Positions 21,681 to 63,460 of a DNA stretch of 64,000 bases are shown here, piece by piece. Every line of letters begins with the position of its first letter. The stretch's first letter is position 1. The translations under genes and the position numbers were made by a program. The stretch is from Vampirovibrionales bacterium (GTDB lineage: Bacteria > Cyanobacteriota > Vampirovibrionia > Vampirovibrionales > JAJTHC01), in the NCBI GenBank assembly GCA_044348005.1, contig JBIKTR010000005.1, forward strand, positions 11,991-75,990, written 5' to 3'. The notes under the pieces were generated by a model that had not been told where the DNA came from, searched no databases, and saw nothing but the letters and a program-made list of their open reading frames with translations.

Positions 21681-21716
21681 CTTCTCTCTTTAAAACACTA
21701 TGTATCTTTCGAACAC

Positions 21717-21878
21717 TATAGAAGGCTCTGCAAAAGTCTATTTTGCTTTGTTCCTCCTCCCTTAGGGAGGAGGCTAGGAGGAGGGACACCAGCTCTGACG
21801 GGGCATCCCGAATCCCTCACCCCAACCCTCTCCCTAAGGGAGAGGGAGTAAAACGCCCTTTTGCAGAGCCTTCTATAG
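21717..21878. repeat. GC-rich REP/MITE-like element with 21-bp terminal inverted repeats (CTATAGAAGGCTCTGCAAAAG) and internal CCCTCTCCC…GGGAGAGGG hairpins
   Basis: Terminal arms at 21717-21737 and 21858-21878. Internal palindromes cctcccttagggaggagg and ccctctccctaagggagaggg. Confidence 0.75.
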
Positions 21879-33880: not shown

Positions 33881-33992
33881 GCCTTGTTCCTTCTCCCTTT
33901 GGGAGAAGGTTAGGATGAGGGAAACACTCGCTAAAATGGGTATCGCCGATTCCCTCACCCCAGCCCTCTCCCAAAGGGAGAGGGAGCAAAGC
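33881..33992. repeat. GC-rich REP/MITE-like element copy (CCTCACCCCAGCCCTCTCCCAAAGGGAGAGGGAG core)
   Basis: Shares the core with copies at 21815, 40390 and 56880. Also contains a ttctccctttgggagaa hairpin. Confidence 0.7.
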
Positions 33993-34081
33993 TACTTTTA
34001 CAGCGCTTTTGTACTTTACTACTCTAGCACAAAAATAACTTCACTGGGCTTTATGCCACTAAGAAATAAGGATGATGTTTC

Positions 34082-38802: not shown

Positions 38803-40074
38803 TTGACAGCTTTCCTTCAACCATTAAACGGCCGGTTTATAGGCGTGATGAGTGGCACTTCGCTTGATGCCGTGGATGTTGTGGTGGCGGATTTAGCCCT
38901 TTTGCCCGTGCAGAAAACGAAAAAAGATAAAGAAACGAAAGACTTAACGAAAGAAACTAAAAATAAAATATCTTTATTCTCTTTAGTTTCTTTCGTTTCT
39001 TTATTTTCTTTCGTTGAACGAAATATAAAACATTATGCGCACCCGTACCCTGAAAATCTAAAGAATCAAATACTCGATTTGCAAAAGGGCTCACGCCTTT
39101 CTTTAGCCCACTATGTGGACGTAGAAAAAGCACTGAGCCTGCTGTACGCTGAAGCGGTTGAAACGGCGCTAAGGCAGTGGCAGATTGAAAAATCGACTGT
39201 TGTGGCGGTGTGTAATCACGGCCAAACCGTGTTTCATCAACGGGATGAAACGGGTGATATGGGGACGATTCAACTGGGGGATGCGTCTCGCTTGGCTGAA
39301 ACACTCGGCATGCGAGTCGTCGCCGATTTTAGGCGCGGAGACATTGCCGTAGGGGGTCAAGGCGCGCCGTTACTGCCGTTTTATGACGCTTTACGCCTAA
39401 GTCAAGCCGAACAAACGATTGTGGCGCACAATTTAGGGGGCATTAGTAATGTAAGCGTTTTGCCCGCGCATGCCCTTGAAATGGATCCTTTTGCCTTTGA
39501 CACGGGACTGGCCAACCTCTGGATCGATCGTGCGATGCAGGCGTATTTTGGCAAGCCCTTCGACGAAGACGGCTCAATCGCGCGGCAGGGGAAACCGATA
39601 GAGGCACTGGTGACGGCTATTTTAGCGCATCCGTTTCATCAACAACACCCCCCCAAATCAACGGGGCGAGACGATTTTAGTGATGAAGCGTTGCATGCCC
39701 TTGTCCGTCAATACGCCAACGGGTCGAGCAAAGAAGCCATTGTCGCCAGTTTTACACACGCCACAGCGCTAAGCATGGTCAAGGCGTATCAAGCTTTTAT
39801 ACTGCCCCGCGTGGGCCACGTGGATGCCATTTTCATGAGTGGGGGAGGGGTTGATAACCGCTATTTAATCGAGTTATTTGAAACCTACTGGCAGCAGGAA
39901 GGGCTGGGTGTTTTGCCTGAACTGAAGCGAACGGAAGCGGTGGGCATCCCCAACAAAGCGAAAGAAGCACTGGGGTTTGCGTGGTTGGGTTGGGCCAAAT
40001 GGCACGGCTTACCGAACAATGTGCCGAGTTGCACAGGGGCGGGGGCCTATGTGTCTGGTGGCGTTATCTACTAA
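38803..40074 (+). CDS. anmK: Anhydro-N-acetylmuramic acid kinase with an in-frame repeat-element insertion
   Basis: GRFIGVMSGTSLDAVDVV N-terminus. Start assigned to an in-frame TTG just after the HAD stop; the ORF track starts at 38707 and the start is uncertain. The KETKDLTKETKNKISLFSLVSFVSLFSF insert is encoded by a palindromic element. Confidence 0.7.
   Translation: MTAFLQPLNGRFIGVMSGTSLDAVDVVVADLALLPVQKTKKDKETKDLTKETKNKISLFSLVSFVSLFSFVERNIKHYAHPYPENLKNQILDLQKGSRLSLAHYVDVEKALSLLYAEAVETALRQWQIEKSTVVAVCNHGQTVFHQRDETGDMGTIQLGDASRLAETLGMRVVADFRRGDIAVGGQGAPLLPFYDALRLSQAEQTIVAHNLGGISNVSVLPAHALEMDPFAFDTGLANLWIDRAMQAYFGKPFDEDGSIARQGKPIEALVTAILAHPFHQQHPPKSTGRDDFSDEALHALVRQYANGSSKEAIVASFTHATALSMVKAYQAFILPRVGHVDAIFMSGGGVDNRYLIELFETYWQQEGLGVLPELKRTEAVGIPNKAKEALGFAWLGWAKWHGLPNNVPSCTGAGAYVSGGVIY
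38912..39035. repeat. AT-rich ACGAAAGAAA-type palindromic element inserted in frame inside anmK
   Basis: aaagaaacgaaagacttaacgaaagaaactaaaaataaa paired with tttattctctttagtttctttcgtttctttattttctttcgtt. Confidence 0.75.
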
Positions 40075-40129
40075 TACCTATTAGTCGTTTAAATGGTATA
40101 GCGCTTTATAAATAAAAAGTGACTCGCCT

Positions 40130-40470
40130 TAAATGGTTGCACCAGCAGGCGTCCAAGCACTAAATCCGAGCGGGTGAGCGCACTGCGACCCCCGAGCGAT
40201 TTTGCGGACGTCGTGCAACGAGAATGATGCGAGGAGGTGGGTCAAAAGGGGGTGGATTTTCAAGGAGGGGGAAATGAGGGAGGAGAAACGCAATACGTCC
40301 TCCCTTCCCCCTCCTTGAACCGCCTTTGGGGGTTTGGGGAGTCTTTGGCGGCGCAAAGACCCCCAAGCACCAGCGTTAAAAGGAGCTAGAAAGCCACCCT
40401 CACCCCAGCCCTCTCCCAGAGGGAGAGGGGGCTTTGTTCCTTCTCCCAGAGGGAGAGGGAGTAAAACCCC
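40130..40470. repeat. Composite GC-rich repeat block: a ~150-bp unit (40231-40385, about 90% identical to 51209-51360) plus two CCCTCTCCCAGAGGGAGAGGG hairpins
   Basis: Direct alignment of both loci. ORFs predicted inside (40129..40366) are judged artefacts. Confidence 0.8.
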
Positions 40471-40598
40471 AATCGCGTCTGGCGTCCTAAAAAGGCTTTA
40501 AAGTTTTTCGTAAAACGGTCGAAACAAGGGGATAGCTCGTAGCGTTTTTAACGTATAAATGCGACAAAACAGCCTCACACATAGAAGGTTTTCTGTGA

Positions 40599-41261
40599 AT
40601 GCGTAACGCTTGGATTCATTTATTTCACCCAAAACGATTTCGTTCAAAACGCGCCTTTTCACTGATTGAAATGTTTGTTTCACTCGGTTTGCTGGCCGTT
40701 ATTTCCGTGAGTGTTATGCAAGTGTTGCGTTCGGCGATTGAACAAACGCAAAATACCCGCATGCGTATTCATCAAGCCACGGTGTTAAATACGTTTATCA
40801 CTTTTTTTAAGGCCGACGCCAACAATGCCACCCGCATTGCGTGGGATCAAGTCGACCATAATTGGATCGCCTTTGAAAACGATCAAACCGTGATTCGCTA
40901 TAGTATTCAGCCACAAAGCGCTTTTTTAGATCGTGATGTGTTTGTGAGAGAAGCCTTGATTAAAACAGCCCCTTTGCCGTATGTGATTACGTCAAGTTCT
41001 GCCATGCCCACGACTTTTGACCCGCCTGATGTACCGATGACGAACTTCATGCCTGCTGAATATGCCAGTCACATTGATTTTCGCTGCGAAGACCCTTGCT
41101 TTGATTTTCAAGCAGGGTTTCGCGTGCAATGGAATGAACCACAGGTGGAAACCGTCAGCAGTAACCCGTATGATAGCATGGTTTCCATTGTATTTGGGGA
41201 AATGGGGCATCGGCACCCAGTGGTGTTGGTCTTCAAAACACTCACCGTGCCGATTCTTTAA
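40599..41261 (+). CDS. Pseudopilin/prepilin-like protein (N-terminal cleavage/methylation-type motif)
   Basis: KRAFSLIEMFVSLGLLAVISV has F+1, E+5 and a hydrophobic helix. The leader is unusually long and has Ala at -1. Confidence 0.4.
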   Translation: MRNAWIHLFHPKRFRSKRAFSLIEMFVSLGLLAVISVSVMQVLRSAIEQTQNTRMRIHQATVLNTFITFFKADANNATRIAWDQVDHNWIAFENDQTVIRYSIQPQSAFLDRDVFVREALIKTAPLPYVITSSSAMPTTFDPPDVPMTNFMPAEYASHIDFRCEDPCFDFQAGFRVQWNEPQVETVSSNPYDSMVSIVFGEMGHRHPVVLVFKTLTVPIL

Positions 41262-41320
41262 ATATACATTTGATATTATTTAATTCTTGTAGTATACTAG
41301 TGCAGTAAGCCCTCTCTGCC

Positions 41321-43204
41321 GTGTTCAACTTTCGGGTTGAACCCCCTATCGTACAAGTGATGCTCTCTATGTCTAACCCCTTTCTGCTTTCTACCGTGTT
41401 TTCTCGCTTGCCTTTTTATGCGCCAAAAAGCACCCCTGCCCAAGAAACTCAAGATTCTACGGCAGATCAACTTCGCTGGTTTAGTCAATTACAAAACGCC
41501 TTTTCCGAAAAACCCGAACAAAAAAAAGCCTTGCTTCACCTATGGAACAAGGGGGTGTTGAGTGACCACAAGGGAGACGATGCCCATTCAACGCTTTTCT
41601 ACCTCAATAAACGCTTACAAGAACCGTGCCTACCCGGTTTGGATCCCCTGCAAACGGTGGAAGAAACCGTCAACTTATTGGCCGATTCTTCGCGGCTGAC
41701 TCAGCACATCAGCCCTCTGAATCAAACCCACCTGCTGGCCATGATGTCAAGCTACCACAACGAGAACGATTCACCTTACCAGCAACAAGCCTTGCCCATT
41801 CCGCAATCCACGCAAGAAGTACAACGCACGCAACTCAATAGTTGTAGCGTACTGGCTGAAATCGGGCGTTTGGTGGACACTCAACCCAAAGAAGTGGCAC
41901 GCATGGTGTATGAAGCGTCAAACCCCACGCAAGACCTTCACGAAATCGTCCACGCCGAAGAACTTTTCCCCGATGCTCCCATTCTGGCCGAACAAGTCTT
42001 AAAAGACTTAAACTTGGACTACCACGTTTTAGATGAAGAGACTCCTTCAAATACAACGGCGCCCACCCGTTTTCGAGTGTCGCTGCCTGTGCCTCATCTT
42101 GGGGTGATTCGTGCCATGAACGCCCAAGCCCTTAAGGATCCCGCAAGCGCTTCAGGCGCCGAATTGCTCTTGGAAGAAGCCCTGCTGTACAATTTTACGT
42201 CCAAAAGCTATGACGCCGGCCGTGACACACGCGATGCCTTGGCTTTGACAAGCGCTGAAATCAACAAAACCCCCAGCCTTACGGTGAAAGACAAGGCCGC
42301 GCTCAATCAACTCATCAACCAAAGCCCGCGGCGCCCAGATCAAGCAAAAGCAGCGATTAAGGGCTATTTAGACTCCATTCAAACCGCTCACCCCGCAGAA
42401 CTTCACGCCCTGTATGCCAGCCTAGAACAAAGCAGTGCGGGCCTTACGCAAGAAGAACAACTGATGATGGAACGCATTTTTGAAGATGACATGGCGCTTG
42501 AAAATGTGACGTATCATCACGTGGGGCAACGAAACGCGAACCCTTCTAAAGCGGTTGAACAACCCGCTGCTTCGTCAGTTTCGAACCCGCCCCCACACGT
42601 GCTACTGGGCTATACCAAGCCTTTTTCGGCTATTAAGCAAGATTTACTCATCGGCTTAGAAAGTCCGCTCACCCAAGTCTTGGCCAACGTGGTTGAACCC
42701 AAGGGAGACGGTTCGTTTGACAAGGGCCACGTGGTTAGAGTGGTGGCGTCTCGCCCTAGTCCGCTGAAAATCCCTCAATTCAACAGCACTGATTTTCTCG
42801 TGCAAGACACTTCCCTGCCTTCAAATGCCCAAGGCAAGGGCAATAATCGCTTGCAATGGTGGCATGAAAGTCAGCTCATTCCGCGTATTCACCACATTAC
42901 CGAAGCCCAACGCGACGCTGAACAAGCCTGGGCGTCCATGACACCCGCCACCGCGGAACACCCCTATGGGTTATTGAATGCCGAACAAGCCAACGACACC
43001 CGCTACACGCTTGATTTCATTACGCCTTCGCCCAATGGCACCCAAGTGCTTGAAACGCCCGAAGCGTTTCATCGACGTGTGCATGATTATCGTCACCAAC
43101 AGGCCAAGCAGGTGGAAGAAGACCTTAGGGAAAAGCAGGGTGGTCCCAGCCAAAGCAAGACAGAAAATAGCCCGGTCCTATGGGGCGCAGCACCCCGCGC
43201 TTAA
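41321..43204 (+). CDS. Hypothetical large protein
   Basis: 627-aa ORF with no recognisable domain. Confidence 0.4.
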   Translation: MFNFRVEPPIVQVMLSMSNPFLLSTVFSRLPFYAPKSTPAQETQDSTADQLRWFSQLQNAFSEKPEQKKALLHLWNKGVLSDHKGDDAHSTLFYLNKRLQEPCLPGLDPLQTVEETVNLLADSSRLTQHISPLNQTHLLAMMSSYHNENDSPYQQQALPIPQSTQEVQRTQLNSCSVLAEIGRLVDTQPKEVARMVYEASNPTQDLHEIVHAEELFPDAPILAEQVLKDLNLDYHVLDEETPSNTTAPTRFRVSLPVPHLGVIRAMNAQALKDPASASGAELLLEEALLYNFTSKSYDAGRDTRDALALTSAEINKTPSLTVKDKAALNQLINQSPRRPDQAKAAIKGYLDSIQTAHPAELHALYASLEQSSAGLTQEEQLMMERIFEDDMALENVTYHHVGQRNANPSKAVEQPAASSVSNPPPHVLLGYTKPFSAIKQDLLIGLESPLTQVLANVVEPKGDGSFDKGHVVRVVASRPSPLKIPQFNSTDFLVQDTSLPSNAQGKGNNRLQWWHESQLIPRIHHITEAQRDAEQAWASMTPATAEHPYGLLNAEQANDTRYTLDFITPSPNGTQVLETPEAFHRRVHDYRHQQAKQVEEDLREKQGGPSQSKTENSPVLWGAAPRA

Positions 43205-43721
43205 CCAAGTAGGAAAGGCGAGGGTAGACGTCTGAAAGTTTGGAGTTTTCGAAGGTTTTGCCTTGGGGGGTGCGAATGTTTTGTTCAATTAGGTAGGCGC
43301 GTACTTCGGCGGTGCTTGCTTTTCCGCCGTTTAGCACAACGGCGCGAAACAGTTCGTAGTTCATGGATTGGCGGTGTCGTAGAACGGCATCTGCCTGTTG
43401 GAAGGCCAGCTCAGGCAAAAACACCCCGCTCGATTCTGGCGCAAGCATCGTTTGAAACGTAGGCTCTGAAGGATCCAGCAAATACGCCGAAGGTTTTGGG
43501 TGCGAGTGATGGGATTGTCTCAATTCCACAGGTTTTTTTAGCAAGTGTAATAAGTGCCCCAGGCTGGCTTGAAAGGCTTCTAACTGCAATACTTTTTCAT
43601 GCAAATCGTCGATTTCTTCAACGTAGCCCGTGAGTAATTTAATGCGTTTTTGCACTTCAGCAAGTTCTTCTTTGCTTTGGGCTAACAATTCGGTGAGGTT
43701 TTGGGCATCCACAATAGACAT
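43125..43721 (-). CDS. Hypothetical coiled-coil / winged-helix-like protein
   Basis: N-terminal coiled coil and a C-terminal segment that may be a winged helix. Overlaps 41321..43204 convergently by 80 bp. Confidence 0.35.
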   Translation of the reverse strand: MSIVDAQNLTELLAQSKEELAEVQKRIKLLTGYVEEIDDLHEKVLQLEAFQASLGHLLHLLKKPVELRQSHHSHPKPSAYLLDPSEPTFQTMLAPESSGVFLPELAFQQADAVLRHRQSMNYELFRAVVLNGGKASTAEVRAYLIEQNIRTPQGKTFENSKLSDVYPRLSYLVKRGVLRPIGPGYFLSCFGWDHPAFP

Positions 43722-43747
43722 TCATCATTTCCTTTAAACGCAAGATT

Positions 43748-43930
43748 CTTTTCTTTAGTTTAGCATAGTTTTTCAAAAAATACGCTATAAAACGAAAGAA
43801 AATAAAGAAACGAAACAAACGAAAGAAAACGACCTAAAACTAAAGAAAAACGAAAGATAACGAAAGAAAGCTAAACAAAACGAAAGAAAACTATAAAAAA
43901 TAAATAAAACGAAAGAAAATAAAGAAGAAG
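43748..43930. repeat. Intergenic copy of the AT-rich ACGAAAGAAA palindromic element (tandem degenerate 11-mers)
   Basis: aaacgaaagaaaataaagaaacgaaacaaacgaaagaaaacga…cgaaagataacgaaagaaag…aaacgaaagaaaataaagaa, with the complementary arm ctttagttt at the 5' end. Confidence 0.8.
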
Positions 43931-43987
43931 CCCGACAAGGCAAAATAGGCTACACTATAAAAATATCTCACCCTAGAGGAAACGCCG

Positions 43988-44989
43988 ATGCCCACTGTCG
44001 CTTTTTTAGATCAAGCCCATCTGCCCGAGTTTACCCCCCTGTACGACGCCTTTCAACGAGAGGCCACCCTGCTTTACCAGTGGCATCACTCCCCACTCGA
44101 TTTACAAGACTTGTGGCAACGGCTCCCCCAAAACGACTTGGGCGTCTTGCTTTTGAAAGATGATGAGCATACGGTTGTGGGGTTTTGGTTCTATGCCTTT
44201 CCGCCTCATGGGGCGTTGGAAATGTCGGTTTTTTATTTGAAAGATGGCTTTTTACCTAGTGAAGACTGGGTGAAAGACGCCTTTCAACAAGCCTTTCACG
44301 CATGGAAGACTCTGGATCACTGGCAAGACTTTAGCTTTGGCATTTATGGCCTTCAAACCCAGTGGGCAAAGGCTTTAGAAGGGCTTGTCGTCAACGGATG
44401 CTCCCCAATTGGGCTGGCAGAACAGCACATTTTACGACGAGACATTATCGCTGGTGACGCCCTGCCGATTTTGAATCTCTATAAAACGCCTGTCTTCCCT
44501 TATGCGATTCATCCGTGGAAAGACAAGTACCAAGCGGGTTTGGCGGTTGCTCTTGCCGCCGCTTTTAAAGACGAGCCCGACGCCTTGTGGGACGCTCGCT
44601 TTCGCAGTGAAGCAGGTGCGAAAGAGGTGTTGACGCTCATTGAAACGCATCAATTCGGGCAGTTTCACCCTAAATTGACCTATGTCGTGCTGGACGAACG
44701 CCGAAAGCCAGTACCTGTGGGAGCCATTTTCTTGTTGCAAGGTGAGGTGGACACGGTGAACATCCCCTTGTTTTTTGTGCATCCTAATCATCAAGGCAAG
44801 GGCTTGGCGAAAATGCTGATGCTCAACTTCATGCAGGGCTTGATTCAAGCGGTGCATGCCAAGCAGTTGGGGGCGACTTCGGTGAATGCGACGACGAACC
44901 CTGTGCAGGTCAAGGCGTTGAAGGTCTACACCGACTTGGGCTTTACCCTCCATGAAGCGGGCTTTCACGCCTATAGCAGTAAGGGGTGA
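43988..44989 (+). CDS. Hypothetical protein with C-terminal GNAT-like acetyltransferase motif
   Basis: VHPNHQGKGLAKMLM (a Q/RxxGxG/A-like acetyl-CoA binding motif). Confidence 0.4.
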   Translation: MPTVAFLDQAHLPEFTPLYDAFQREATLLYQWHHSPLDLQDLWQRLPQNDLGVLLLKDDEHTVVGFWFYAFPPHGALEMSVFYLKDGFLPSEDWVKDAFQQAFHAWKTLDHWQDFSFGIYGLQTQWAKALEGLVVNGCSPIGLAEQHILRRDIIAGDALPILNLYKTPVFPYAIHPWKDKYQAGLAVALAAAFKDEPDALWDARFRSEAGAKEVLTLIETHQFGQFHPKLTYVVLDERRKPVPVGAIFLLQGEVDTVNIPLFFVHPNHQGKGLAKMLMLNFMQGLIQAVHAKQLGATSVNATTNPVQVKALKVYTDLGFTLHEAGFHAYSSKG

Positions 44990-45063
44990 AAGACTATATT
45001 CAAGCAAACTGCTTGACAAAATAAGAAAAAGTTTCTATACTAAGATAGTATAAGGAGTTACTT

Positions 45064-45336
45064 ATGACCGTCGTAGGTGTTTCAAAACAAGCCATTAAAG
45101 ACTTAAATAAGGCTCCTTCAAACATTCAGATTAAGTTTGCCACTTGGAAATTAGCGGTTGAAGTTCAAGGGATTGAAATCGTACGTCAACGTTCAGGCTT
45201 TCATGACGAACCCTTGAAAGGAAAACGTAAAGGGCAACGTTCCGTAAGGCTAAACAAGCAGTGGCGTGTGATTTATGTCGAAGTCAATGAAATCCTTAAC
45301 ATTACCGTATTGGAGGTGAATCCGCATGACTACTAA
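45064..45336 (+). CDS. higB: HigB-like toxin (paralog of 31895..32167)
   Basis: LKGKRKGQRSVRLNKQWRVIYVE. Lies upstream of and overlapping the HTH antitoxin. Confidence 0.65.
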   Translation: MTVVGVSKQAIKDLNKAPSNIQIKFATWKLAVEVQGIEIVRQRSGFHDEPLKGKRKGQRSVRLNKQWRVIYVEVNEILNITVLEVNPHDY

Positions 45337-45640
45337 AGATGAACTCGGCCACGAACTCGGGGACTATGTTCCGCCTAAGCTGACGATTGGTCAAGTGATT
45401 AAGGCACATCGTGAATGCGAAGACTGGACGCTTGAAGAAGCGGCAAAAAAGTTGGGTATTTCTAAACAAGCCTTGCACCAGTACGAAACAGGTCAAAGGC
45501 TCCCCAGTAGTGAACAAACCATTCGCTTGGCGGAAGCGTTGGGATCTTCCCCTGAAGCGTGGCTGATTTACCGCATTGAAACTGAACTTGAAAAGCACGG
45601 CATGTTTTACAAAGTTCGACTAGAAAGACGTCCAGCCTAA
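45326..45640 (+). CDS. higA: HigA-like HTH (XRE) antitoxin
   Basis: HTH segment TLEEAAKKLGISKQALHQYETGQRLP. Confidence 0.65.
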   Translation: MTTKDELGHELGDYVPPKLTIGQVIKAHRECEDWTLEEAAKKLGISKQALHQYETGQRLPSSEQTIRLAEALGSSPEAWLIYRIETELEKHGMFYKVRLERRPA

Positions 45641-45654
45641 AGTCTAAAAACATA

Positions 45655-45750
45655 CCGTCATTGCGAGCGTAGCGTGGCAGTCTGTAGAGATTCCGTAAGT
45701 GGTGAACAGATTGCTTCACATGCGTTCGCAATGACAACGCTCCACTTTTA
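45655..45750. repeat. Imperfect palindrome (arms GTCATTGCGAGCG / CGTTCGCAATGAC). Its first 24 nt recur, inverted, at 51112..51135
   Basis: ccgtcattgcgagcgtagcgtggc versus the reverse complement of gccacgctatgctcgcaatgacgg (23 of 24 identical). Confidence 0.7.
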
Positions 45751-45786
45751 AGCTAGAATATATCTAAACTAAAGGAGGGCGTTTAT

Positions 45787-47154
45787 ATGAACTGGATTTT
45801 TCTACTAAGCGGTGTGGCACTTGGGGCGTTGGTGAGCTATCTTATTTTTCAGGCCCACGCGAATCAACGTATCACCACGATTCAAGCTCAAGCCAACGAA
45901 AAAGACTTGCACCTGGTGCGCCTTGAAGAACAACGCCAGCATCTGCAAAACGAACTGGCGACGTCAAAAGAACAGGCTCAACAGTATTATGACGATCTCG
46001 CTCTCAAGCAAGATGCCTTGGCGAGCGAAAAAGAAGCCAATGCGTCCTTGAAAAGCCAAGTGGACTCATGGCAAGCGCGCTTTAGTGAATCGAAAACGGA
46101 ATGGGAAACCGTGTGGAAGGAAAATCTGCAACACTTTTTAAGCCAAGAACTGATGCAAACCCGTGAACAGCTCAACAAACTGGCGCAAGTGGAAGATGAA
46201 GAACGGCATCAACGCTTTAGCGGACTGGTGGATCCTGTGAAAAAGATGCTCGACGAGTACCAAGCCAAGCTCGATGCGATGAACACGGCCTATGCCACGC
46301 AAATCGGGATTGTCAATAACAATGTGGACAAACTCACTTCGGCGAAAAACCAGTTGCTTTCTGTGTTAAAGCATAATAAGGGGGCGGGCGATTGGGGTGA
46401 AATTCAGCTCAACATGATTTTAGAAGCGTCTGGCTTGCAAAAAGACACCCACTATTTCACGCAAAAAAAGCTCGAAGGCAGTAAAGGCATCCCTGATGTG
46501 GTGGTGAAAATGGAGCAGGAACGCTATGTGGTGATTGATTGTAAAACGCTCCGTTTTTCGAGCAAGCCCTTCCATGACTTTGAGCAAGACGAAGCTGAAG
46601 TTGCCAGCGAACCGACGTTCACCGATGCCAAGGCGCTGGTAAACTCGATTCGGCAAGCCGTGAAAAGCCTTAATTTGAAGGATTACCTTCAAAATAACAC
46701 GAAGCAAACGCCTGATTTTGTGGTGATGTTTCTGCCTCAAGAATCGATGCTGTCTCACGCGTTGGACGAAGACAAGGACTTGTGGCAATTTGCGTGGGAA
46801 AAGGGCGTCGTGTTGAGTTCACCGCTGACGCTGATTGCGCTGTTGCGGATGATCCACATGGGCTGGAGCCAATACCACTTCACCCAAAACATGGAAGAAG
46901 TGAAAAAAATTGGCCTTGAACTGCACGAGCGTTTGGTGCGACTGGCCAAAAGTCTCCATGCGGTAGATGAAAAATACAAGCACTTGGGCGAGGCGCTTCA
47001 AGATGTTAAAATCAAGCATGATGGTCAGCAAGGGCTGCTTAAAAGCATTCGCAAGCTTGAAAACATTGGGGTGAAATCGTCCGCCGTGGTGCCGAAAGAA
47101 CTCACGGTGGTGGAAGAAGCGTCCCCGTTGGCTTTAGAAACACTGCCAGTTTAG
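45787..47154 (+). CDS. rmuC: DNA recombination protein RmuC
   Basis: N-terminal TM segment, a long coiled coil, and a conserved RmuC C-terminal domain. Confidence 0.75.
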   Translation: MNWIFLLSGVALGALVSYLIFQAHANQRITTIQAQANEKDLHLVRLEEQRQHLQNELATSKEQAQQYYDDLALKQDALASEKEANASLKSQVDSWQARFSESKTEWETVWKENLQHFLSQELMQTREQLNKLAQVEDEERHQRFSGLVDPVKKMLDEYQAKLDAMNTAYATQIGIVNNNVDKLTSAKNQLLSVLKHNKGAGDWGEIQLNMILEASGLQKDTHYFTQKKLEGSKGIPDVVVKMEQERYVVIDCKTLRFSSKPFHDFEQDEAEVASEPTFTDAKALVNSIRQAVKSLNLKDYLQNNTKQTPDFVVMFLPQESMLSHALDEDKDLWQFAWEKGVVLSSPLTLIALLRMIHMGWSQYHFTQNMEEVKKIGLELHERLVRLAKSLHAVDEKYKHLGEALQDVKIKHDGQQGLLKSIRKLENIGVKSSAVVPKELTVVEEASPLALETLPV

Positions 47155-47322
47155 AAGCCACCTAAGCGTCTTATACCGCTTAAACGTCTCAATTAATTTT
47201 TAACTTGGCCATTTTAATCAAATCGCCTATAATATAGAGGACATTCAACAAAAAGAACAGACTAAAAACTTGAACCTGTGTATACTGTAGGTATTACCAT
47301 TCAGTAAAGGATTCTGCTGCTC

Positions 47323-48789
47323 ATGGCTTCAAAAAAAGAACGCATCGTTGTGGTTTCAAATAGAGAACCGTATTCCGTTAAATTGACGCTTGACGGCGTG
47401 GCGGTTCAAAAAAATGCAGGGGGGCTAGTTTCCGCCTTAGAACCGCTGGTAAAACAAAGTAACGGCCTGTGGGTGTGTTGGGAAGGTGAAGCGGGTTCTA
47501 AAAGTCAGCTTTCTTCGGTGATCAATGAAATGTCTGAAAACGAAGGGGAATCTTGCTTGCCCTTTTCCGTCTTGCCTGTGGCTTTGACAGATGATGAGAT
47601 TAATCACTATTACAATGGATACGCCAATCGCGTTTTATGGCCGTTGTTTCACTATTTGGTGAGCTACTGCGTTTTTTGGGACGAAAAAGCCTGGCCCAGT
47701 TACTACAGTGCCAATGAAAAGTTTGCCGACAAAGTCATAGCCTACAGCACCAGCAACGACTTGATTTGGGTGCATGACTACCACTTAATGCTGGTGCCTA
47801 GTATGGTTCGTGAAATTAAGCATCACGCGCGCATCGGGTGGTTTTGCCATATTCCTTTTCCCAATTATGAAATCTACCGTCACTTGCCCAATCGTGTGGA
47901 ACTGATTCGCGGGGTGTTGGGGGCCGATTTAGTGGGCTTTCATGTGCCTTCTTATGTCAATCACTTTTTAGAATGTGTGGAGCGTTGCTTGTTAGACGAA
48001 GTCGTGGTTGATCGAAGCGCGCAAAGCATCCGCTACCAAGGGCGGACGATTAAAGTCATTGCCTGCCCCATTAGTATTGACACCGATGAATTCAATGCCC
48101 TGAACGTCAATGAAGACGTTCACCAAAACTCACGCAAGCTTAAAAAAGCGTTTGGCGTGGAGTTTATAGGCGTTGGGGTGGATCGCCTAGACTACACCAA
48201 AGGCATTGTAGAGCGCTTTAAAGCCATTGAACTGTTTTTTGACAAGTACCCACAATACAAAACAAGACTCACCTTTGTGCAAATCGGTTCGCCCACGCGA
48301 ACGGATGTTCCGATGTACAAAAAACTAAAAGACGAAGTGGATTTGGTGCTCGGCAGTATTAACAGTCGTTTGGCCGAAGGGCCGTGGGTACCGATTCAGT
48401 ATTTTTATCGCAAGTTCACGCATGAGCAAATCATGCCGTACTTTGCCGCCAGCGATTTTTGCCTGGTGACCCCCCTGCGAGATGGCATGAATCTAGTAGC
48501 CAAAGAATACTGCCTGACCTGCACAGATGACTTGGGCGTGTTGGTGTTAAGCGAAATGGCCGGTGCTTCTGAAGAAATGACCGAAGCCTTAATGGTCAAT
48601 CCCTACGATTTAGAATCGATGGCCGATGCCATTTACCAAGCCATTACCATGCCCGCCTTCGAACAGAAACAACGCATGAAATCGTTACGAAAACGCATTG
48701 AAGCCTTTACCGTCTTTGACTGGGTGGATCAATTTATAAAGGAGTTCCACGACCATGAGCATTCTAGCCGAGAAGCCGTCCTTTCCTAA
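47323..48789 (+). CDS. otsA: Trehalose-6-phosphate synthase
   Basis: GT20 family features: the LWVHDYHL segment and the C-terminal PLRDGMNLVAKEY motif. Confidence 0.85.
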   Translation: MASKKERIVVVSNREPYSVKLTLDGVAVQKNAGGLVSALEPLVKQSNGLWVCWEGEAGSKSQLSSVINEMSENEGESCLPFSVLPVALTDDEINHYYNGYANRVLWPLFHYLVSYCVFWDEKAWPSYYSANEKFADKVIAYSTSNDLIWVHDYHLMLVPSMVREIKHHARIGWFCHIPFPNYEIYRHLPNRVELIRGVLGADLVGFHVPSYVNHFLECVERCLLDEVVVDRSAQSIRYQGRTIKVIACPISIDTDEFNALNVNEDVHQNSRKLKKAFGVEFIGVGVDRLDYTKGIVERFKAIELFFDKYPQYKTRLTFVQIGSPTRTDVPMYKKLKDEVDLVLGSINSRLAEGPWVPIQYFYRKFTHEQIMPYFAASDFCLVTPLRDGMNLVAKEYCLTCTDDLGVLVLSEMAGASEEMTEALMVNPYDLESMADAIYQAITMPAFEQKQRMKSLRKRIEAFTVFDWVDQFIKEFHDHEHSSREAVLS

Positions 48790-49642
48790 TCCCCTCATGG
48801 TCGAAACCCTCGTTCAAGCGCTTCACAACGGGCAACATTTGGCCCTGATGCTAGACTATGACGGCACCTTAACGCCGATTGTCAGCCGTCCGCAAGACGC
48901 GCAATTGAATGAAGAAGGCCTAAAAACGCTGGTGGCGTTGGCTCAGCATCCGCAAATACAGCTCGCGATTATTAGTGGCCGTTCTGTGGAACAGTTAAAG
49001 CACTTTATGCAAGACATTTTACCGCAAACGCTTTTGCTCGCTGGTTTACACGGTGGCCAAGTGTGGGATGCCTTCCATAATCTTCCGCTTGCAGAACCTG
49101 ATGAAGCCCTCGTTCAGCTTAAAACGCAATTCTTGCAGATGATTTCCAATCAACTTCTCGCCACCTATGGTGAAATTCCTCAAGGCGTAAGCTTTGAAGA
49201 AAAGGGCTATACCTTTGCGTTGCACTTTCGTTTGGCAGAAGCGACGCTGGCCCGTGAAGTGCATGCGCTTTTTCAAAAAATGTTTGATGAAATGCCCGCC
49301 ATTCATAACGCCTTTCGGGTGCAGACGGGGCATTGCGTGATTGAAATAGTCCCTAAGCCCTTTAACAAAGGGGCAGGCGTTCAATTTTGTGTTGATTATT
49401 GGAAAGCGCAACATCCTCAAACGTCGTTCTTTCCCCTTTTTGCGGGCGATGACAAAACCGATGAATTGGGGCTTAAAGCCGTTCTGACCCTTGAAGGCGC
49501 AGGGATTGCCGTTAGTGTAGACCCCCAACACATGCAAGCCCTTACCCCCCATGAACGAGACGCCTTATGGGTATTGAAAGATCCCGCCGAACTCCACGTC
49601 GTGCTTAAAGCCCTCGTAAACGCGCTGGCGCCACACGCTTAA
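48755..49642 (+). CDS. otsB: Trehalose-6-phosphate phosphatase
   Basis: HAD motif I LMLDYDGTL. Overlaps the otsA 3' end. Confidence 0.7.
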   Translation: MSILAEKPSFPNPLMVETLVQALHNGQHLALMLDYDGTLTPIVSRPQDAQLNEEGLKTLVALAQHPQIQLAIISGRSVEQLKHFMQDILPQTLLLAGLHGGQVWDAFHNLPLAEPDEALVQLKTQFLQMISNQLLATYGEIPQGVSFEEKGYTFALHFRLAEATLAREVHALFQKMFDEMPAIHNAFRVQTGHCVIEIVPKPFNKGAGVQFCVDYWKAQHPQTSFFPLFAGDDKTDELGLKAVLTLEGAGIAVSVDPQHMQALTPHERDALWVLKDPAELHVVLKALVNALAPHA

Positions 49643-49653
49643 AAGGAACCCGT

Positions 49654-50763
49654 ATGTTTGACGATCCAGTAAAACCGCACACCTCACGTTCTTCAGATGA
49701 AGCCTACCGTCAAGCAGGGGTGGACTTAGAGCGTGCGAAAGATGTGGTTGAAATCGCTAAAACCGCGACTCAAAAAAGCCAGCGACCCGACATCACCCTC
49801 GGCGGTATTGGTGGATTTTCAGGAGCGTTTCGGATTCCTAAGGGGTATGAATCCCCCGTTTTGTTGGCGGCTACAGACGGCGTGGGAACGAAGCTTGAAC
49901 TGGCTCAACAGTTGGGCCTGCACGACGGCATTGGCATTGATTTAGTGGCCATGAGCGTTAATGACCTACTGACCCAAGGCGGTGAACCCTTGGTATTTTT
50001 AGACTATTTCGCCACAGATCGTATTGAACCAACTCGTTTAGCCACGATTTTAGAAAGCATCGCAAGTGGGTGTGCCGAATCGAATTGTGCATTGGTGGGG
50101 GGGGAAACCGCGGAAATGCCTGGATTTTATGCCAAGAATCAATATGATTTGGCGGGTTTTGCCGTGGGCGTGGTGGAAGAAGCGAAGCTTTTACCGCGTA
50201 GTGAGGCGATGCGCGCTGGAGACGTCTTGCTGGGTGTGGCTTCTAGTGGGCCTCACGCCAACGGATATTCACTAATTCGCAAAATTTTAAAAGACGCCCG
50301 AATCACTGCTGACGTCCCCCTTCCACACAGTGAATTTTCCCTTTACAGCGCCTTGCTAAAGCCGACTCGCCTGTATGTAAAACCGATTTTAGCCCTGCTT
50401 AAAACGCATGCTGCTGCCATCAAGGGCATGGTCCATGTTACAGGCGGTGGCTTTCAGGACAACCTTCCGCGTATATTGCCAGCACATCTAAAGGCCGTGG
50501 TGGATCTTTCTTCGTGGAGCTTACCGCCCGTGTTTCGCTGGCTAGCCCAAACAGGGGGGCTTGATGCCTTGAGCTTATTACACACGTTTAATGCGGGTGT
50601 GGGCTTTGTTTTGTGTGTTTCAGGTGAAGAAGCCGATGGGGTTGCTCAGCAACTTTCAGCGATTTTAGAAGGGGAATCTGTCATTCGCTTGGGCCACCTC
50701 GATGAAAAAACCCCTCAAGACACGGCCATTTCCTTTTTACACGTCGATTCATTTACGTTCTAG
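49654..50763 (+). CDS. purM: Phosphoribosylformylglycinamidine cyclo-ligase (AIR synthetase)
   Basis: AIRS N-terminal and C-terminal domains (GGIGGFSG, DGVGTK). Confidence 0.85.
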   Translation: MFDDPVKPHTSRSSDEAYRQAGVDLERAKDVVEIAKTATQKSQRPDITLGGIGGFSGAFRIPKGYESPVLLAATDGVGTKLELAQQLGLHDGIGIDLVAMSVNDLLTQGGEPLVFLDYFATDRIEPTRLATILESIASGCAESNCALVGGETAEMPGFYAKNQYDLAGFAVGVVEEAKLLPRSEAMRAGDVLLGVASSGPHANGYSLIRKILKDARITADVPLPHSEFSLYSALLKPTRLYVKPILALLKTHAAAIKGMVHVTGGGFQDNLPRILPAHLKAVVDLSSWSLPPVFRWLAQTGGLDALSLLHTFNAGVGFVLCVSGEEADGVAQQLSAILEGESVIRLGHLDEKTPQDTAISFLHVDSFTF

Positions 50764-50874
50764 TGTGTTCGATAGATGAAACGGTCTATGGTCTCTTCGT
50801 TGTCGCGACGATTGGTTATGTATAGTTTTTTTCATTTAAGTGGAGTCTAGAAAATCATTGTATTTTAGGGTTTC

Positions 50875-51365
50875 TAGCTCCATTTAACACTGGTGCTTGG
50901 GTTTCTCGTTTGTTTTTATAGCTGGTGCTTGGAGACCTTTGTGCCGCCAAAGGTCTCCAAACCTCTAAAGGCGGCTTAAGGGGCGGCGGGGGGAGGGACG
51001 TGTTACGTCCTCCCTCCCCCCAGTACGCCCCCCTTAAGAATCCCCCATCCCCCCCTCCCTCCCGTTCCAAACCACGAGGCAAAAATAAACACACAAGGTC
51101 TATAGAAATTGCCACGCTATGCTCGCAATGACGGGCAAAAAGCTTGCCGACAACGCACTAAATGCGAGGCTTCCGAGACATTTTGCCCACGGCAGGAACG
51201 AAGATAGGGCGAGGAGGTGGGGATTCAGGGGGGATTTTCAAGGGGGGACGAAGGGGAGGAGAAACGCAATGCGTCCTTCCCCGTCCCCCCTTGAACCGCC
51301 TTTGGGGGTTTGGGGAGTCTTTGGCGGCGCAAAGACCCCCAAGCACCAGCGTTAAACGGAGCGAG
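50875..51365. repeat. About 480-bp composite palindromic repeat block: an inverted diverged copy (50882-51075) and a direct copy (51209-51360) of the ~150-bp GC-rich unit, flanking a ~130-bp core
   Basis: 51290-51360 is the reverse complement of 50885-50960. Shares the unit with 40231-40385. ORFs predicted inside are judged artefacts. Confidence 0.8.
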
Positions 51366-51434
51366 AAAACCAAACATACAATGATTTTCTAGACTGCTAC
51401 TGTTTAAATAGAAAATACTATAGCTTTATCGTGT

Positions 51435-51833
51435 CTACACCAACGCCGAAGCAATGGCTTCAGGGATGCGACGAAAGGGCTTGAAATCCGCATCGCAGAC
51501 CACACACACGGTGGTTGACTCGTAAATCAACGTCTCCGACCCGTCCGCTTCCAAACGAAATACGGGTTGCGAAAAAATTAAGCGAGGCCCCTTAATTTCA
51601 ACGGTGGTACGAATTTCAAGGGCATCTCGCAATTTGGCAGGTTTGCGAAAACGCACCGTCTGTTCCGCCACAGGATACACATAACCTTCTTGGGGCGTCT
51701 GCAAATCTAGCCCAGCTTCGACCATCACAGCATCCCGAGCTTGTTCCAGCCATTTCAAGTAATTGCCGTGCCACATCACGCCGTAACAATCCGTATCGTA
51801 AATATGCACCTTGAACTGGAGTTTAGAGACTTT
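51435..51833 (-). CDS. Acyl-CoA thioesterase (4HBT/YbgC hotdog family)
   Basis: VHIYDTDCYGVMWHGNYLKWLE hotdog signature. The start was trimmed to MKVSK. Confidence 0.55.
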   Translation of the reverse strand, partial: KVSKLQFKVHIYDTDCYGVMWHGNYLKWLEQARDAVMVEAGLDLQTPQEGYVYPVAEQTVRFRKPAKLRDALEIRTTVEIKGPRLIFSQPVFRLEADGSETLIYESTTVCVVCDADFKPFRRIPEAIASALV

Positions 51834-52566
51834 CATCTGAAGAGACCTCCTCTGTTTCAAGAACCGCTGCCTTGGCGAGTTTTTCCGCTTGACGCTTAAG
51901 TTTTCGCTTGGCATAGGGTGTCAATTTTTTTGCTGTAGATTCAGCCACCGTGTTTTCTTCAACTAAAAAACTATCTAGCCCCGTGAGCGTCAAGCGTTTT
52001 TGTGACAAATCCACGGCTTCGACAAAGTGCGCGTCAAAGGGAATGAGCGTCACTTTTTTGGATGCCTTCATCGTCAATTCAATAAAGTTTTGATCGCCCG
52101 CGTGCGTGGCACTAATAATGGCGGTAACATCTGCCAACGCTTCGGTTGATGTGGTCGTCCATACGTCTAAGCCCACCAGCTCATAAGTGCGGAAGGTAAA
52201 GGGCTCTTTTATCGCGGGGAGCTTGGATTTTTCAAGGTGTAAGGTGGCCCCAATCCATGATTTAATGACTTCGGGGGTGTTCCAGCCTTCAATTTGCAAG
52301 GTGAGCTTAAAGGGTTCGTAGGCGTCTGTTTTCGTCAGTGTCACCCATTGCGGGACTCTCCCCTTGTTGGGCTTACCTTCGGGGGGGCGTATCCAGAGGC
52401 GTTTGACGGTATGGAGCCAATCGGGGTGAGCATCCGTACTGCGGACTTTTACATCGGTGGTGATGCCAACAGCGCCCATAATCTCGCCCACTTCAACCCA
52501 TTCTTGGGCAGGGCTTGGAAAGGCTTGAGCGGTTTCGGCTTTTTCTGTTGGGTGTGTTTGATTCAT
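51823..52566 (-). CDS. rimM: Ribosome maturation factor RimM with Lys-rich C-terminal extension
   Basis: RimM N-terminal and PRC-barrel-like regions. A C-terminal KRKLKRQAEKLAKA tail follows. Confidence 0.65.
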   Translation of the reverse strand: MNQTHPTEKAETAQAFPSPAQEWVEVGEIMGAVGITTDVKVRSTDAHPDWLHTVKRLWIRPPEGKPNKGRVPQWVTLTKTDAYEPFKLTLQIEGWNTPEVIKSWIGATLHLEKSKLPAIKEPFTFRTYELVGLDVWTTTSTEALADVTAIISATHAGDQNFIELTMKASKKVTLIPFDAHFVEAVDLSQKRLTLTGLDSFLVEENTVAESTAKKLTPYAKRKLKRQAEKLAKAAVLETEEVSSDESL

Positions 52567-56840: not shown

Positions 56841-56873
56841 AAAGGGATGCTTTTACGAGCATCCCTTTTTTTG
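56841..56873 (+). terminator. Rho-independent terminator after icd
   Basis: aaagggatgc-ttttacg-agcatcccttt hairpin followed by a T7 run. Confidence 0.7.
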
Positions 56874-56914
56874 TGTTTACTCTCTCTCTCACTTAGGGAG
56901 AGGGAGTAAACACA
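56873..56914. repeat. REP-like hairpin copy (GTGTTTACTCTCTCTC…GGGAGAGGGAGTAAACAC)
   Basis: Shares the GGGAGAGGGAGTAAA core with the 21840 and 40450 copies. Confidence 0.7.
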
Positions 56915-56985
56915 AAAGGCAATTCACAGAACTTTCTTAGCACAAAAAAAACTGGAGCCGTCTTTAAGCCTTTGTTACCTTCGAT

Positions 56986-63134: not shown

Positions 63135-63460
63135 GCGTTTTCCTATTTTCCCTAAGTATTACACACTTATAAGCATTAAACACTTTGGCGTCCTTTTTTA
63201 TGCTATAGGGTTCGAAAAATAAAACGGTCTATGGTCTCTTCGTTGTCGCTACGATTTTTTTGTTTGGTTATGTACGTCTGTGTACACGCCCGCACAAAAA
63301 AATCTAGGCTCCTAGAATAGCCTCATCGCCTGTTTCATCTTTGGAACCCTATAGTGCCGTTTCTAAGACCTTTGATTCGCACTTTTTTCTGTGTTTGGTG
63401 TTTAATAAGACTATAATCGCTTTTTAAAGGAAATACTTGTCAAAAAAAAAGAGGTTTTTT

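What the first reader, a model, noticed from the sequence alone, without database searches (positions are those of the whole stretch)
50875..51365. About 480-bp composite palindromic GC-rich repeat block between purM and a convergent thioesterase gene
A ~150-bp GC-rich unit (…GAACCGCCTTTGGGGGTTTGGGGAGTCTTTGGCGGCGCAAAGACCCCCAAGCACCAGCGTTAAA) is present in direct orientation at 51209-51360. An inverted, diverged copy is present at 50882-51075. Together they form a giant imperfect palindrome around a 130-bp core. That core itself contains a 24-nt motif shared with 45655-45680. Such structures are typical of BIME/REP clusters or MITEs. They may act as bidirectional terminators, as mRNA stabilisers, or as recombination hot spots.
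Basis: seen in the sequence. Interest (0 to 1): 0.55.

Follow-up and report, generated by a model that had tools for sequence, protein, structure and literature searches.

The report
Back-to-back mobile repeat pair (MITE)
The GC-rich palindrome after purM is two inverted copies of a small non-coding mobile repeat that litters the genomes of a group of Vampirovibrionales bacteria, so it is an ordinary kind of element but a family nobody appears to have described.

Summary
Window 50815-51424, about 610 bp, is one imperfect palindrome that fills nearly the whole purM/thioesterase spacer. It consists of two head-to-head copies of a roughly 350-nt non-coding repeat. The repeat has about 25-nt terminal inverted repeats (TATAGTG...CACTATA) and a highly structured G-rich core.

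The family is dispersed. I counted 82 copies, all intergenic where both neighbours could be called, in six related MAGs plus the window. Five MAGs are labelled Vampirovibrionales; one is labelled Gammaproteobacteria, probably wrongly. One more copy lies in a complete Vampirovibrio genome.

A syntenic relative with 90-93% DNA identity lacks both window insertions: 40 nt replace 657 nt, and 5 nt replace 384 nt. The head-to-head form recurs at non-orthologous loci.

The best reading is a MITE-type non-autonomous transposon family with a double, foldback-like variant. The transposase was not found and the target-site duplication is unresolved. The hairpins covary, but inter-copy gene conversion can explain that.

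There is no intrinsic-terminator signature, no sigma-70 promoter and no Rfam match. REP/BIME membership is not supported. Verdict: a new member of a known kind, of modest interest.

The parts
50815..51104 (-). Left arm: an 'A2'-type copy of the repeat in reverse orientation. Its 3' end (CACTATA type) faces purM. Most of the 5' module M1 is deleted, and one 32-nt tail module is tandemly duplicated (50883-50946).
   Evidence: The nhmmer profile hits 50838-51056 (-). The alignment to other copies is, the direct repeat D1, and the arm-to-arm alignment.
51100..51424 (+). Right arm: a 'B'-type copy in forward orientation. Its alternative 5' end starts TCTATAGAAATTGCCACGC, and its 3' end, ...AGAAAATACTATA, faces the thioesterase gene.
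   Evidence: nhmmer hits 51124-51428 (+), E = 4e-80. The same B-type 5' end appears in L055, L041, L014, L056, L001 and L010.
51091..51116 (.). Head-to-head junction CACAAGGTCTATAGAAATTGCCACGC, with the palindrome TCTATAGA at 51099-51106.
   Evidence: Inverted repeat I6. The same junction, with 2 mismatches, is found in L056 from another genome.
50844..50906 (.). Outer inverted-repeat arm, left. It contains a 19-nt variant found only in this block.
   Evidence: I1, 63 nt at 87%. The 19-mer is exact on both sides and absent from all 104 fetched loci.
51333..51395 (.). Outer inverted-repeat arm, right.
   Evidence: I1.
50975..51038 (-). M2 long G/C hairpin of the left arm (variant CTTAAGGGGcGGCG...CGCCcCCCTTAAG).
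   Evidence: Read directly from the sequence. Covariation is shown.
50929..50960 (-). M3 hairpin of the left arm (TTGGAGACCTTTG / CAAAGGTCTCCAA, a 13-bp perfect stem).
   Evidence: I5.
51237..51295 (+). M2 long hairpin of the right arm (TTCAAGGGGGGACG...CGTCCCCCCTTGAA).
   Evidence: I4, 14 nt at 100%.
51312..51340 (+). M3 hairpin of the right arm (GGGGAGTCTTTG gcggcg CAAAGACCCCC). It lies inside the near-invariant core CCGCCTTTGGGGGTTTGGGGAGTCTTTGGCGGCRCAAAGACCCCCAAGCACCAGC.
51099..51134 (+). 36-nt 5'-terminal segment of the B arm. It also occurs inverted at 45655-45690.
   Evidence: I5 (36 nt, 86%).
40095..40396 (+). Third copy: a solo 'A' element lacking its 3' tail. It is followed directly by a fragment of a different repeat family (40391-40470).
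   Evidence: nhmmer E = 4.9e-100, profile positions 6-303. D5. Absent from relative L102.
50761..50821 (+). Flanking fragment of another small repeat family ('R54'), between the purM stop codon and the left end of the block.
   Evidence: D13. Full copies at window 63203-63318, L047, L008 and L021.
49654..50763 (+). purM (AIR synthase), the upstream flanking gene.
   Evidence: Pfam AIRS and AIRS_C.
51435..51914 (-). 4HBT-type thioesterase, the convergent flanking gene.
   Evidence: Pfam 4HBT_2 and 4HBT.

Best explanation
The block is a double copy of a non-autonomous DNA transposon (a MITE).

**The basic element.** It is about 350 nt long and non-coding.
- It is bounded by imperfect terminal inverted repeats of about 25 nt (to about 38 nt), 5'-TATAGTGTTTTTTAGATAAAAAGTG... 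and ...CACTTCTTAAATATAAAACACTATA-3'.
- Between them lies a G-rich core that folds into three hairpin domains, M1 to M3.

**How it moves (inferred).** A transposase encoded elsewhere, not identified here, is inferred to bind the two ends. It would insert the element into AT-rich, TA-containing intergenic sites.

**The window block.** At the purM/thioesterase spacer the inserted unit is the head-to-head variant. Two copies are joined at their 5' ends, so both outer ends are 3'-type termini in inverted orientation. That arrangement is itself a valid two-ended substrate.

**How the family evolves.** Copies exchange segments by gene conversion. This gives mosaic variants and a core that is more uniform than the termini.

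**What is shown and what is inferred.**
- Shown: repeat anatomy, terminal inverted repeats, copy number, intergenic location, presence/absence between close relatives, recurrence of the double form, and conserved hairpins.
- Inferred: the transposase, the size of the target duplication (TA or about 4-8 bp around TTAT), and any effect on the two convergent transcripts. Read-through RNA from either gene would fold into a very stable hairpin and would probably be processed or destabilised.
For: - **Terminal inverted repeats.** Consensus ends match at 20 of the first 25 positions. The block's own outer ends match at 63 nt, 87%.
- **Copy number.** The 21-mer core hits 61 true loci in six MAGs. An nhmmer profile counts 82 copies including 3 in the window. 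One more copy lies in the complete genome CP050876.1.
- **Location.** All 39 copies with two callable neighbours are intergenic and show no orientation bias: 12 in the same sense, 11 antisense, 11 between convergent genes, 5 between divergent genes.
- **Empty sites.** Relative L102 has PurM 95% identical and DNA 90-93% identical, fully syntenic over window 39998-52112.
  - It has 40 nt where the window has 657 nt (50764-51422).
  - It has 5 nt where the window has 384 nt (40083-40468).
- **The double form recurs.** The head-to-head form is present at non-orthologous loci in L055, L056, L014, L001, L010 and L041. L056 has the same junction.
- **No coding capacity.** Variants differ by 2-nt and 22-nt indels, so no frame is conserved.
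- **Independent insertions.** At one orthologous site, L051 carries the element forward and L062 carries it reversed.
- **No match to other classes.** No Rfam family reaches its gathering score. There are no matches in plasmids, phages or viral contigs.
Against: - No transposase with matching ends was found in the window (Pfam) or in about 0.5 Mb of related loci.
- No clean target-site duplication could be read at either empty site.
- One copy (L029) has TGTAG...CTACA ends. This suggests the outer 'TA' belongs to the inverted repeat rather than to a duplication.
- The internal core is more conserved than the termini, the reverse of the usual MITE pattern.
- The hairpin stems show compensatory changes. 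That could mean the structure itself is selected.
Confidence: 0.8

Rival explanations
1. It is a family of structured non-coding RNA genes or cis-acting RNA modules (for example a stability or processing element, or a guide-like RNA for a mobile-element enzyme). The inverted ends and dispersal would then be secondary.
For: - The M2 and M3 stems keep 98.2% of cells paired.
- 13 of 44 pairs change on both sides, against 5.9 +/- 1.5 in shuffles (0 of 500 reach it) and at most 5 when partners are slid.
- A further compensatory stem change appears in the distant L098 copy.
- The core is more conserved than the termini and than the flanking intergenic DNA in orthologous copies.
- The G-rich strand folds better than its complement in 53 of 53 variants.
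Against: - There is no orientation bias relative to neighbouring genes.
- There is no sigma-70 promoter or intrinsic terminator in the block and no Rfam match.
- Both window copies are dispensable in a 90-93% identical relative.
- Orthologous copies differ by a 105-nt internal module with no duplication. Hairpin and core variants are also shuffled between copies. Both point to gene conversion, which can produce paired changes in palindromes without selection.
- The strand asymmetry is expected from G-richness alone.
Confidence: 0.1
2. It is a REP/BIME-type cluster: short extragenic palindromes propagated by a RAYT (Y1, IS200/IS605-like) transposase acting on single-stranded hairpins.
For: - The copies are extragenic and GC-rich, with hairpins in alternating orientation within the block.
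- The G-rich strand folds better than its complement.
- Several unrelated small palindromic families coexist in the window.
Against: - The repeated unit is about 350 nt with about 25-nt terminal inverted repeats. It is not a 20-40-nt palindrome.
- The hairpins never occur alone outside the unit.
- No Y1-transposase-like multi-copy ORF was seen in the window or loci.
Confidence: 0.04
3. It is primarily a host-selected bidirectional transcription terminator or insulator between the convergent purM and thioesterase genes.
For: - The block lies between convergent genes.
- As RNA the whole block folds to -325.6 kcal/mol, z = -18.
- 11 of 39 copies lie between convergent genes.
Against: - No hairpin in the block is followed by a T tract, and the scan finds no terminator inside it.
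- The close relative manages with a 54-nt spacer between the two called genes and no element.
- Copies occur equally in tandem and, less often, divergent contexts.
Confidence: 0.05

Closest known systems
Prokaryotic MITEs in general (as defined in PMC10969869 and PMC11602168)
   Same: - Size within 50-800 bp.
- Terminal inverted repeats of at least 10-15 bp.
- No transposase gene.
- Many copies, in intergenic regions.
- Transcripts predicted to form very stable stem-loops.
- Abundant in the cyanobacterial lineage.
   Different: - The flanking direct repeats could not be resolved.
- No parent insertion sequence was found.
- The core is GC-rich and better conserved than the AT-rich termini. MITEs are usually AT-rich throughout, with the termini the best-kept part.
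Correia repeat-enclosed elements of Neisseria
   Same: - Short non-coding elements with inverted ends, in many intergenic copies.
- Strain-to-strain presence/absence.
- The RNA hairpin is cut by RNase III (PMC10969869), which is the most likely fate of this block's transcript.
   Different: - Correia elements are smaller. They carry defined promoters and an IHF site (PMC10969869) and a TA duplication (own knowledge).
- No sigma-70 promoter was found here.
- There is no sequence similarity.
BOX / RUP / SPRITE clusters of Streptococcus pneumoniae
   Same: - Modular small repeats.
- Several unrelated families bunch in the same intergenic sites and insert next to or into one another (PMC10969869).
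- In this window the A/B, P, R54 and 45655 families share spacers in the same way.
   Different: - Different phylum and sequences.
- BOX elements have variable numbers of an internal module. Here the variable parts are a 32-nt tail module and a 105-nt optional insert.
REP/BIME elements of enterobacteria and pseudomonads
   Same: Extragenic, GC-rich, palindromic, and found in head-to-head arrangements.
   Different: - REP units are 20-40 nt with a conserved 5' tetranucleotide and are linked to RAYT genes (own knowledge).
- Here the unit is about 350 nt with terminal inverted repeats, and no RAYT was seen.
Foldback-type transposons with very long inverted arms (eukaryotic FB elements; own knowledge)
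   Same: In the double form each arm, about 290-325 nt, is most of the element, and the whole is one giant imperfect palindrome.
   Different: - Foldback elements are eukaryotic, and their arms are built of tandem subrepeats.
- Here each arm is a complete copy of a smaller element. The resemblance is architectural only.

Membership tests
MITE (non-autonomous class II element) | Small size (about 50-800 bp in prokaryotes) | tested here: met
   The solo element is about 350 nt (profile of 363 positions). The double form is about 610 nt.
MITE (non-autonomous class II element) | Terminal inverted repeats of at least 10-15 bp | tested here: met
   The consensus ends match at 20 of the first 25 positions. 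The block's outer ends match at 63 nt, 87%.
MITE (non-autonomous class II element) | No transposase or other conserved ORF inside | tested here: met
   Copies differ by 2-nt and 22-nt indels and by an optional 105-nt insert, so no frame is conserved. Only chance ORFs of 50-86 aa overlap the block.
MITE (non-autonomous class II element) | Multiple dispersed copies | tested here: met
   82 copies in the window plus 61 loci from six MAGs. One more copy lies in CP050876.1.
MITE (non-autonomous class II element) | Evidence of mobility (filled versus empty sites) | tested here: met
   Both window sites are empty in relative L102, which is 90-93% identical. The element is in opposite orientations at one orthologous site in L051 and L062.
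MITE (non-autonomous class II element) | Target-site duplication of 2-10 bp flanking the element | tested here: inconclusive
   - The purM site is compatible with TA (GGT-TA-[...]-TA-TCGTG) or with TTAT.
- The anmK site is compatible with TA, but its right end is a different repeat.
- The flanks are too diverged to decide.
MITE (non-autonomous class II element) | A related autonomous insertion sequence with the same ends | tested here: inconclusive
   None was found in the window (Pfam) or in about 0.5 Mb of related loci. Whole genomes could not be scanned.
IS630/Tc1-mariner-derived MITE | TA target duplicated on insertion | tested here: inconclusive
   Most copies read TA-TAG...CTA-TA. However, L029 has TGTAG...CTACA, so the outer dinucleotide behaves as part of the inverted repeat there.
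IS630/Tc1-mariner-derived MITE | Ends matching those of a DDE (DDE_3) transposase gene in the same genomes | not tested
   No such gene was available in the fetched DNA.
REP/BIME | The unit is a 20-40-nt imperfect palindrome that occurs on its own | tested here: not met
   The M2 and M3 hairpins occur only inside the roughly 350-nt unit.
REP/BIME | Associated RAYT (Y1 transposase) gene flanked by the repeats | tested here: inconclusive
   None was seen in the window or loci. Whole genomes were not scanned.
Intrinsic (Rho-independent) terminator | GC-rich hairpin followed directly by a T tract | tested here: not met
   No site lies inside 50815-51424. The only hit, at 50797-50811, is outside and weak, and the count is below the shuffle expectation.
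Any Rfam RNA family | Score at or above the family's gathering threshold | tested here: not met
   There are 0 hits in the whole window. Only generic hairpin (miRNA-type) matches appear, far below threshold.

The most novel reading that the evidence does not exclude
The near-invariant, covarying G-rich core (M1-M3) might not be passive cargo. It could be a functional single-stranded module that the element needs or supplies. Examples are an RNA or ssDNA scaffold recognised by the still-unknown mobilising enzyme, or a cis-acting RNA that controls the fate of neighbouring transcripts. That would explain why the core is better conserved than the termini and why several unrelated small repeat families in the same genome share only the (C)TATAG tips.
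Probability: 0.1. Interest if true: 0.6.

Novelty: new member of a known kind. Interest (0 to 1): 0.3.

Why it matters
- **Assembly and annotation.** The family, with at least three other small palindromic families in the same window, fills and reshapes intergenic spacers in a little-studied, uncultured lineage, the non-photosynthetic relatives of cyanobacteria. Many copies sit at contig ends, so they break metagenome assemblies. They can be mistaken for regulatory RNA or for lineage markers.
- **Strain typing.** The insertions give ready-made presence/absence markers.
- **Gene expression.** The 610-bp palindrome between two convergent housekeeping genes is a natural test case. It could show how such insertions affect transcript ends.
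- **Limits.** None of this changes what is known about how MITEs work.

Tried and rejected
- **Rfam.** The gathering-threshold search of the whole window gave nothing. E-value searches on both copies gave only generic hairpin hits.
- **Metagenome scan with PurM.** It returned only distant loci. The closest, L064 (65% aa), has another gene 18 nt after purM and no element.
- **Exact-protein look-up of the thioesterase.** Not on record.
- **Empty-site tests among the fetched loci.** L002 against L060, and L051/L062 against the window, were uninformative about the duplication. The spacers are diverged or hold other repeats.
- **Search for an autonomous partner.** There are no further elements beyond three weak partial end matches outside known copies. 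No multi-copy ORF family resembles a transposase. There are no transposase domains in 48 window ORFs.
- **Other collections.** Plasmid, phage and viral-contig searches gave no match.
- **attC (integron) idea.** Prompted by GTTAAAC near the 3' side and rejected. That hexamer is variable (GTTAAA, TATAAA, TCAAAA), the units are far too long, and the copies are dispersed, not arrayed.
- **IS200/IS605-type (PATE or omega-RNA-like) idea.** Rejected because the two ends are true inverted repeats.
- **Terminator adjacency.** About 9 of 78 element ends lie next to a terminator-like hairpin, against 0.9% of random positions. The background includes coding DNA, so this is weak.
- **Literature.** I found no report of MITEs in Vampirovibrio or Vampirovibrionales.

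Full report
**Observation.** The sequence between purM (49654-50763, +) and a convergent 4HBT thioesterase gene (51435-51914, -) (Pfam) holds a large imperfect palindrome.
- The repeat finder gives arms 50844-50906 / 51333-51395 (63 nt, 87%) and 50954-50991 / 51279-51316 (38 nt, 82%).
- A 19-mer is exact on both sides, with 0.00 matches expected by chance.
- BLAST of the block against itself, and a global alignment of the arms, extend the symmetry to about 50815-51424. There are 204 matched positions, 81% over ungapped columns, with several indels.
It is the 5' portion of the right-hand copy abutting the truncated 5' end of the left-hand copy, at a TCTATAGA palindrome (51099-51106).
- The motif shared with 45655 is 36 nt and inverted.
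- A third copy at 40095-40396 was missed.

**Anatomy of the unit.** I aligned 43 copies and built an nhmmer profile. These define a solo element of about 350 nt.
- *Ends.* The 5' end is TATAGTGTTTTTTAGATAAAAAGTGTGATGCTTAAAATCG. The 3' end is TCTTAAAATAyCACTTCTTAAATATAAAACACTATA. At consensus level they are inverted repeats, matching at 20 of the first 25 positions.
- *M1.* About 110 nt, closed by GTTGCAC...GTGCAAC, with a 22-nt indel variant.
- *M2.* A long hairpin of roughly 21-25 base pairs that exists in at least five sequence variants.
- *M3.* The nearly invariant CCGCCTTTGGGGGTTTGGGGAGTCTTTGGCGGCACAAAGACCCCCAAGCACCAGC.
- *Tail.* An A/T-rich tail whose 32-nt module is sometimes duplicated, as at window 50883-50946.
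- *Coding.* The indels are not multiples of three, so the element is non-coding.

**Distribution.**
- One scan of the species-representative genome collection with the 21-mer core returned 63 loci. Of these, 61 are true copies.
- The copies come from five MAGs labelled Vampirovibrionales and one labelled Gammaproteobacteria.
- That sixth MAG shares orthologous flanks at about 91-96% identity with a Vampirovibrionales MAG, so its label is probably wrong.
- The profile counts 82 copies in those loci plus the window. Another copy lies in the complete genome CP050876.1.
- Many copies lie at contig ends.
- The window itself belongs to this clade. It is syntenic with L001 at about 85% identity. Among its closest PurM homologues, those that carry a source name are mostly from Vampirovibrio or Vampirovibrionales.
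- There is no match in plasmids, phages or viral contigs, and no Rfam family.

**Mobility.**
- Contig L102 has PurM 95% identical and DNA 90-93% identical. Its gene order is the same from anmK to the gene beyond the thioesterase gene (RimM in the window).
- Its purM/thioesterase interval has 40 nt where the window has 657 nt (50764-51422).
- Its anmK downstream interval has 5 nt where the window has 384 nt (40083-40468).
- Both window copies are therefore insertions, or precise losses, since the two lineages split.
- At another orthologous spacer, L051 carries the element forward and L062 carries it reversed, while the window (56871-56933) holds a different small palindrome. These are independent events at a favoured site.
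- The target duplication could not be read.
  - The purM site fits TA or TTAT, and the anmK site fits TA.
  - The flanks are diverged and partly made of other repeats.
  - One copy has TGTAG...CTACA ends. That argues the outer dinucleotide belongs to the inverted repeat.

**The double form.**
- The head-to-head arrangement is not unique to this locus.
- The same pairing recurs in L055, L056, L014, L001, L010 and L041. One arm is a 'B' copy whose 5' end is TCTATAGAAATTGCCACGC...; the other is an 'A2' copy whose outer 5' repeat is missing.
- L055's flanks are unrelated to purM.
- L056 has the same junction as the window with two mismatches.
- The B-type 5' end was seen only inside such pairs.
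- The two outer ends of the window block share a private 19-nt variant found in none of the other copies, as expected if they function together as the two ends of one element.
- The block is best read as a member of a roughly 600-nt foldback-like variant that moves as a unit.

**Structure.**
- On 13 representative variants, RNAalifold predicts 44 pairs, 13 of them with changes on both sides.
- Counting on that structure gives 98.2% paired cells. The 13 covarying pairs compare with 5.9 +/- 1.5 in shuffles (0 of 500) and at most 5 when partners are slid.
- The distant L098 copy adds another compensatory change in M3.
- The whole block folds to -325.6 kcal/mol as RNA (z = -18).
- The hairpins are therefore maintained, but this need not mean selection on an RNA.
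  - Hairpin and core variants are shuffled among copies.
  - Orthologous copies differ by a 105-nt internal module with no duplication.
  - Element cores are 96-100% identical where the flanks are 72-96%.
  - Frequent gene conversion among copies, and between the arms of palindromes, would give the same picture.
- The G-rich strand folds better than its complement in 53 of 53 variants, but that follows from G-richness and G-U pairing.

**Context and function.**
- All 39 copies with two callable neighbours are intergenic. They show no orientation preference: 12 in the same sense, 11 antisense, 11 convergent, 5 divergent.
- The block has no sigma-70 promoter and no hairpin-plus-T-tract terminator.
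- The element-free relative has none either in its 54-nt spacer.
- A dedicated terminator or RNA-gene role is therefore not supported.
- Read-through RNA from either gene would form a very long duplex. By analogy with Correia elements (PMC10969869) it would probably be a substrate for RNase III. This is inference.

**Comparison and verdict.**
- The element meets the defining features of a prokaryotic MITE (PMC10969869, PMC11602168): size, inverted ends, lack of coding capacity, copy number and mobility.
- Two features remain open, the target duplication and the parent insertion sequence.
- It fails the REP/BIME, intrinsic-terminator and Rfam tests.
- Two features are unusual for a MITE: the GC-rich core is better conserved than the termini, and the double form recurs.
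- I found no published description of such elements in Vampirovibrionales.
- I rate it a new member of a known kind, of modest interest.

Noticed in passing
window 21716-21878; also 33881-33999, 40391-40470, 56884-56915: A second small palindromic repeat family ('P', about 163 nt). Its ends are CTATAGAAGGCTCTGCAAAAG...CTTTTGCAGAGCCTTCTATAG, with internal CCCTCTCCCnnAGGGAGAGGG hairpins. At the site orthologous to 21680-21716, the related genome L001 carries the A/B double element instead.
   Followed up: partly
window 63203-63318 and 50761-50821; L047, L008, L021: A third small repeat family ('R54', about 115 nt), running from TATAG...AAACGGTCTATGGTCTCTTCGTTGTCGC to ...TCTAGGCTCCTATAG. The fragment at 50761-50821 starts at the purM stop codon and abuts the left end of the block. 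All the small families in this window end in (C)TATAG...CTATA(G) but are otherwise unrelated.
   Followed up: partly
window 45640-45773 versus L102 5039-5616: In the window, the spacer between the HTH gene and rmuC holds an 85-nt palindromic repeat (45655-45740, arms CGTCATTGCGAGCG / CGTTCGCAATGAC). In the close relative the same spacer holds 577 nt with a 117-aa ORF that has no Pfam hit.
   Followed up: no
window 45105-45338: About 233 nt are present in the window but absent from relative L102 (L102 4733-4737), just upstream of the HTH gene.
   Followed up: no
L003, L004, L009, L013 and others (assembly JBEISK01): This MAG is labelled 'Gammaproteobacteria bacterium'. It shares orthologous flanks at about 91-96% DNA identity with a Vampirovibrionales MAG (JBILSS) and carries 15 copies of the element. 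The label is probably wrong.
   Followed up: partly
L036 4477-4906 versus L003 6854-7178; L043 versus L049: An optional internal module of about 105 nt (ACAAAAAACCTTCTTATTCACGAAGTGAATC...ACTTTTTCGAC) is present or absent between orthologous copies of the element. It has no flanking duplication. It sits at the same M1/M2 boundary in different hairpin-variant backgrounds.
   Followed up: partly
window 2755-5505 (-), repeats at 3007-3238 and 4045-4736: A 916-aa ORF with no Pfam hit contains long runs of 9- and 12-nt periodic repeats, seen as 25 overlapping 157-nt copies.
   Followed up: no
window 37507-37583, 38916-39018, 43749-43925: A-rich AAAGAAAAyrAAAGAAA-type short repeats recur in direct and inverted orientation, some inside ORFs and some in spacers.
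   Followed up: no
window 12177-13742 (+): An ORF with N6 DNA methylase, TaqI-like specificity and Eco57I-type domains. It looks like a type II restriction-modification methyltransferase, sitting between pheS and unannotated ORFs.
   Followed up: no
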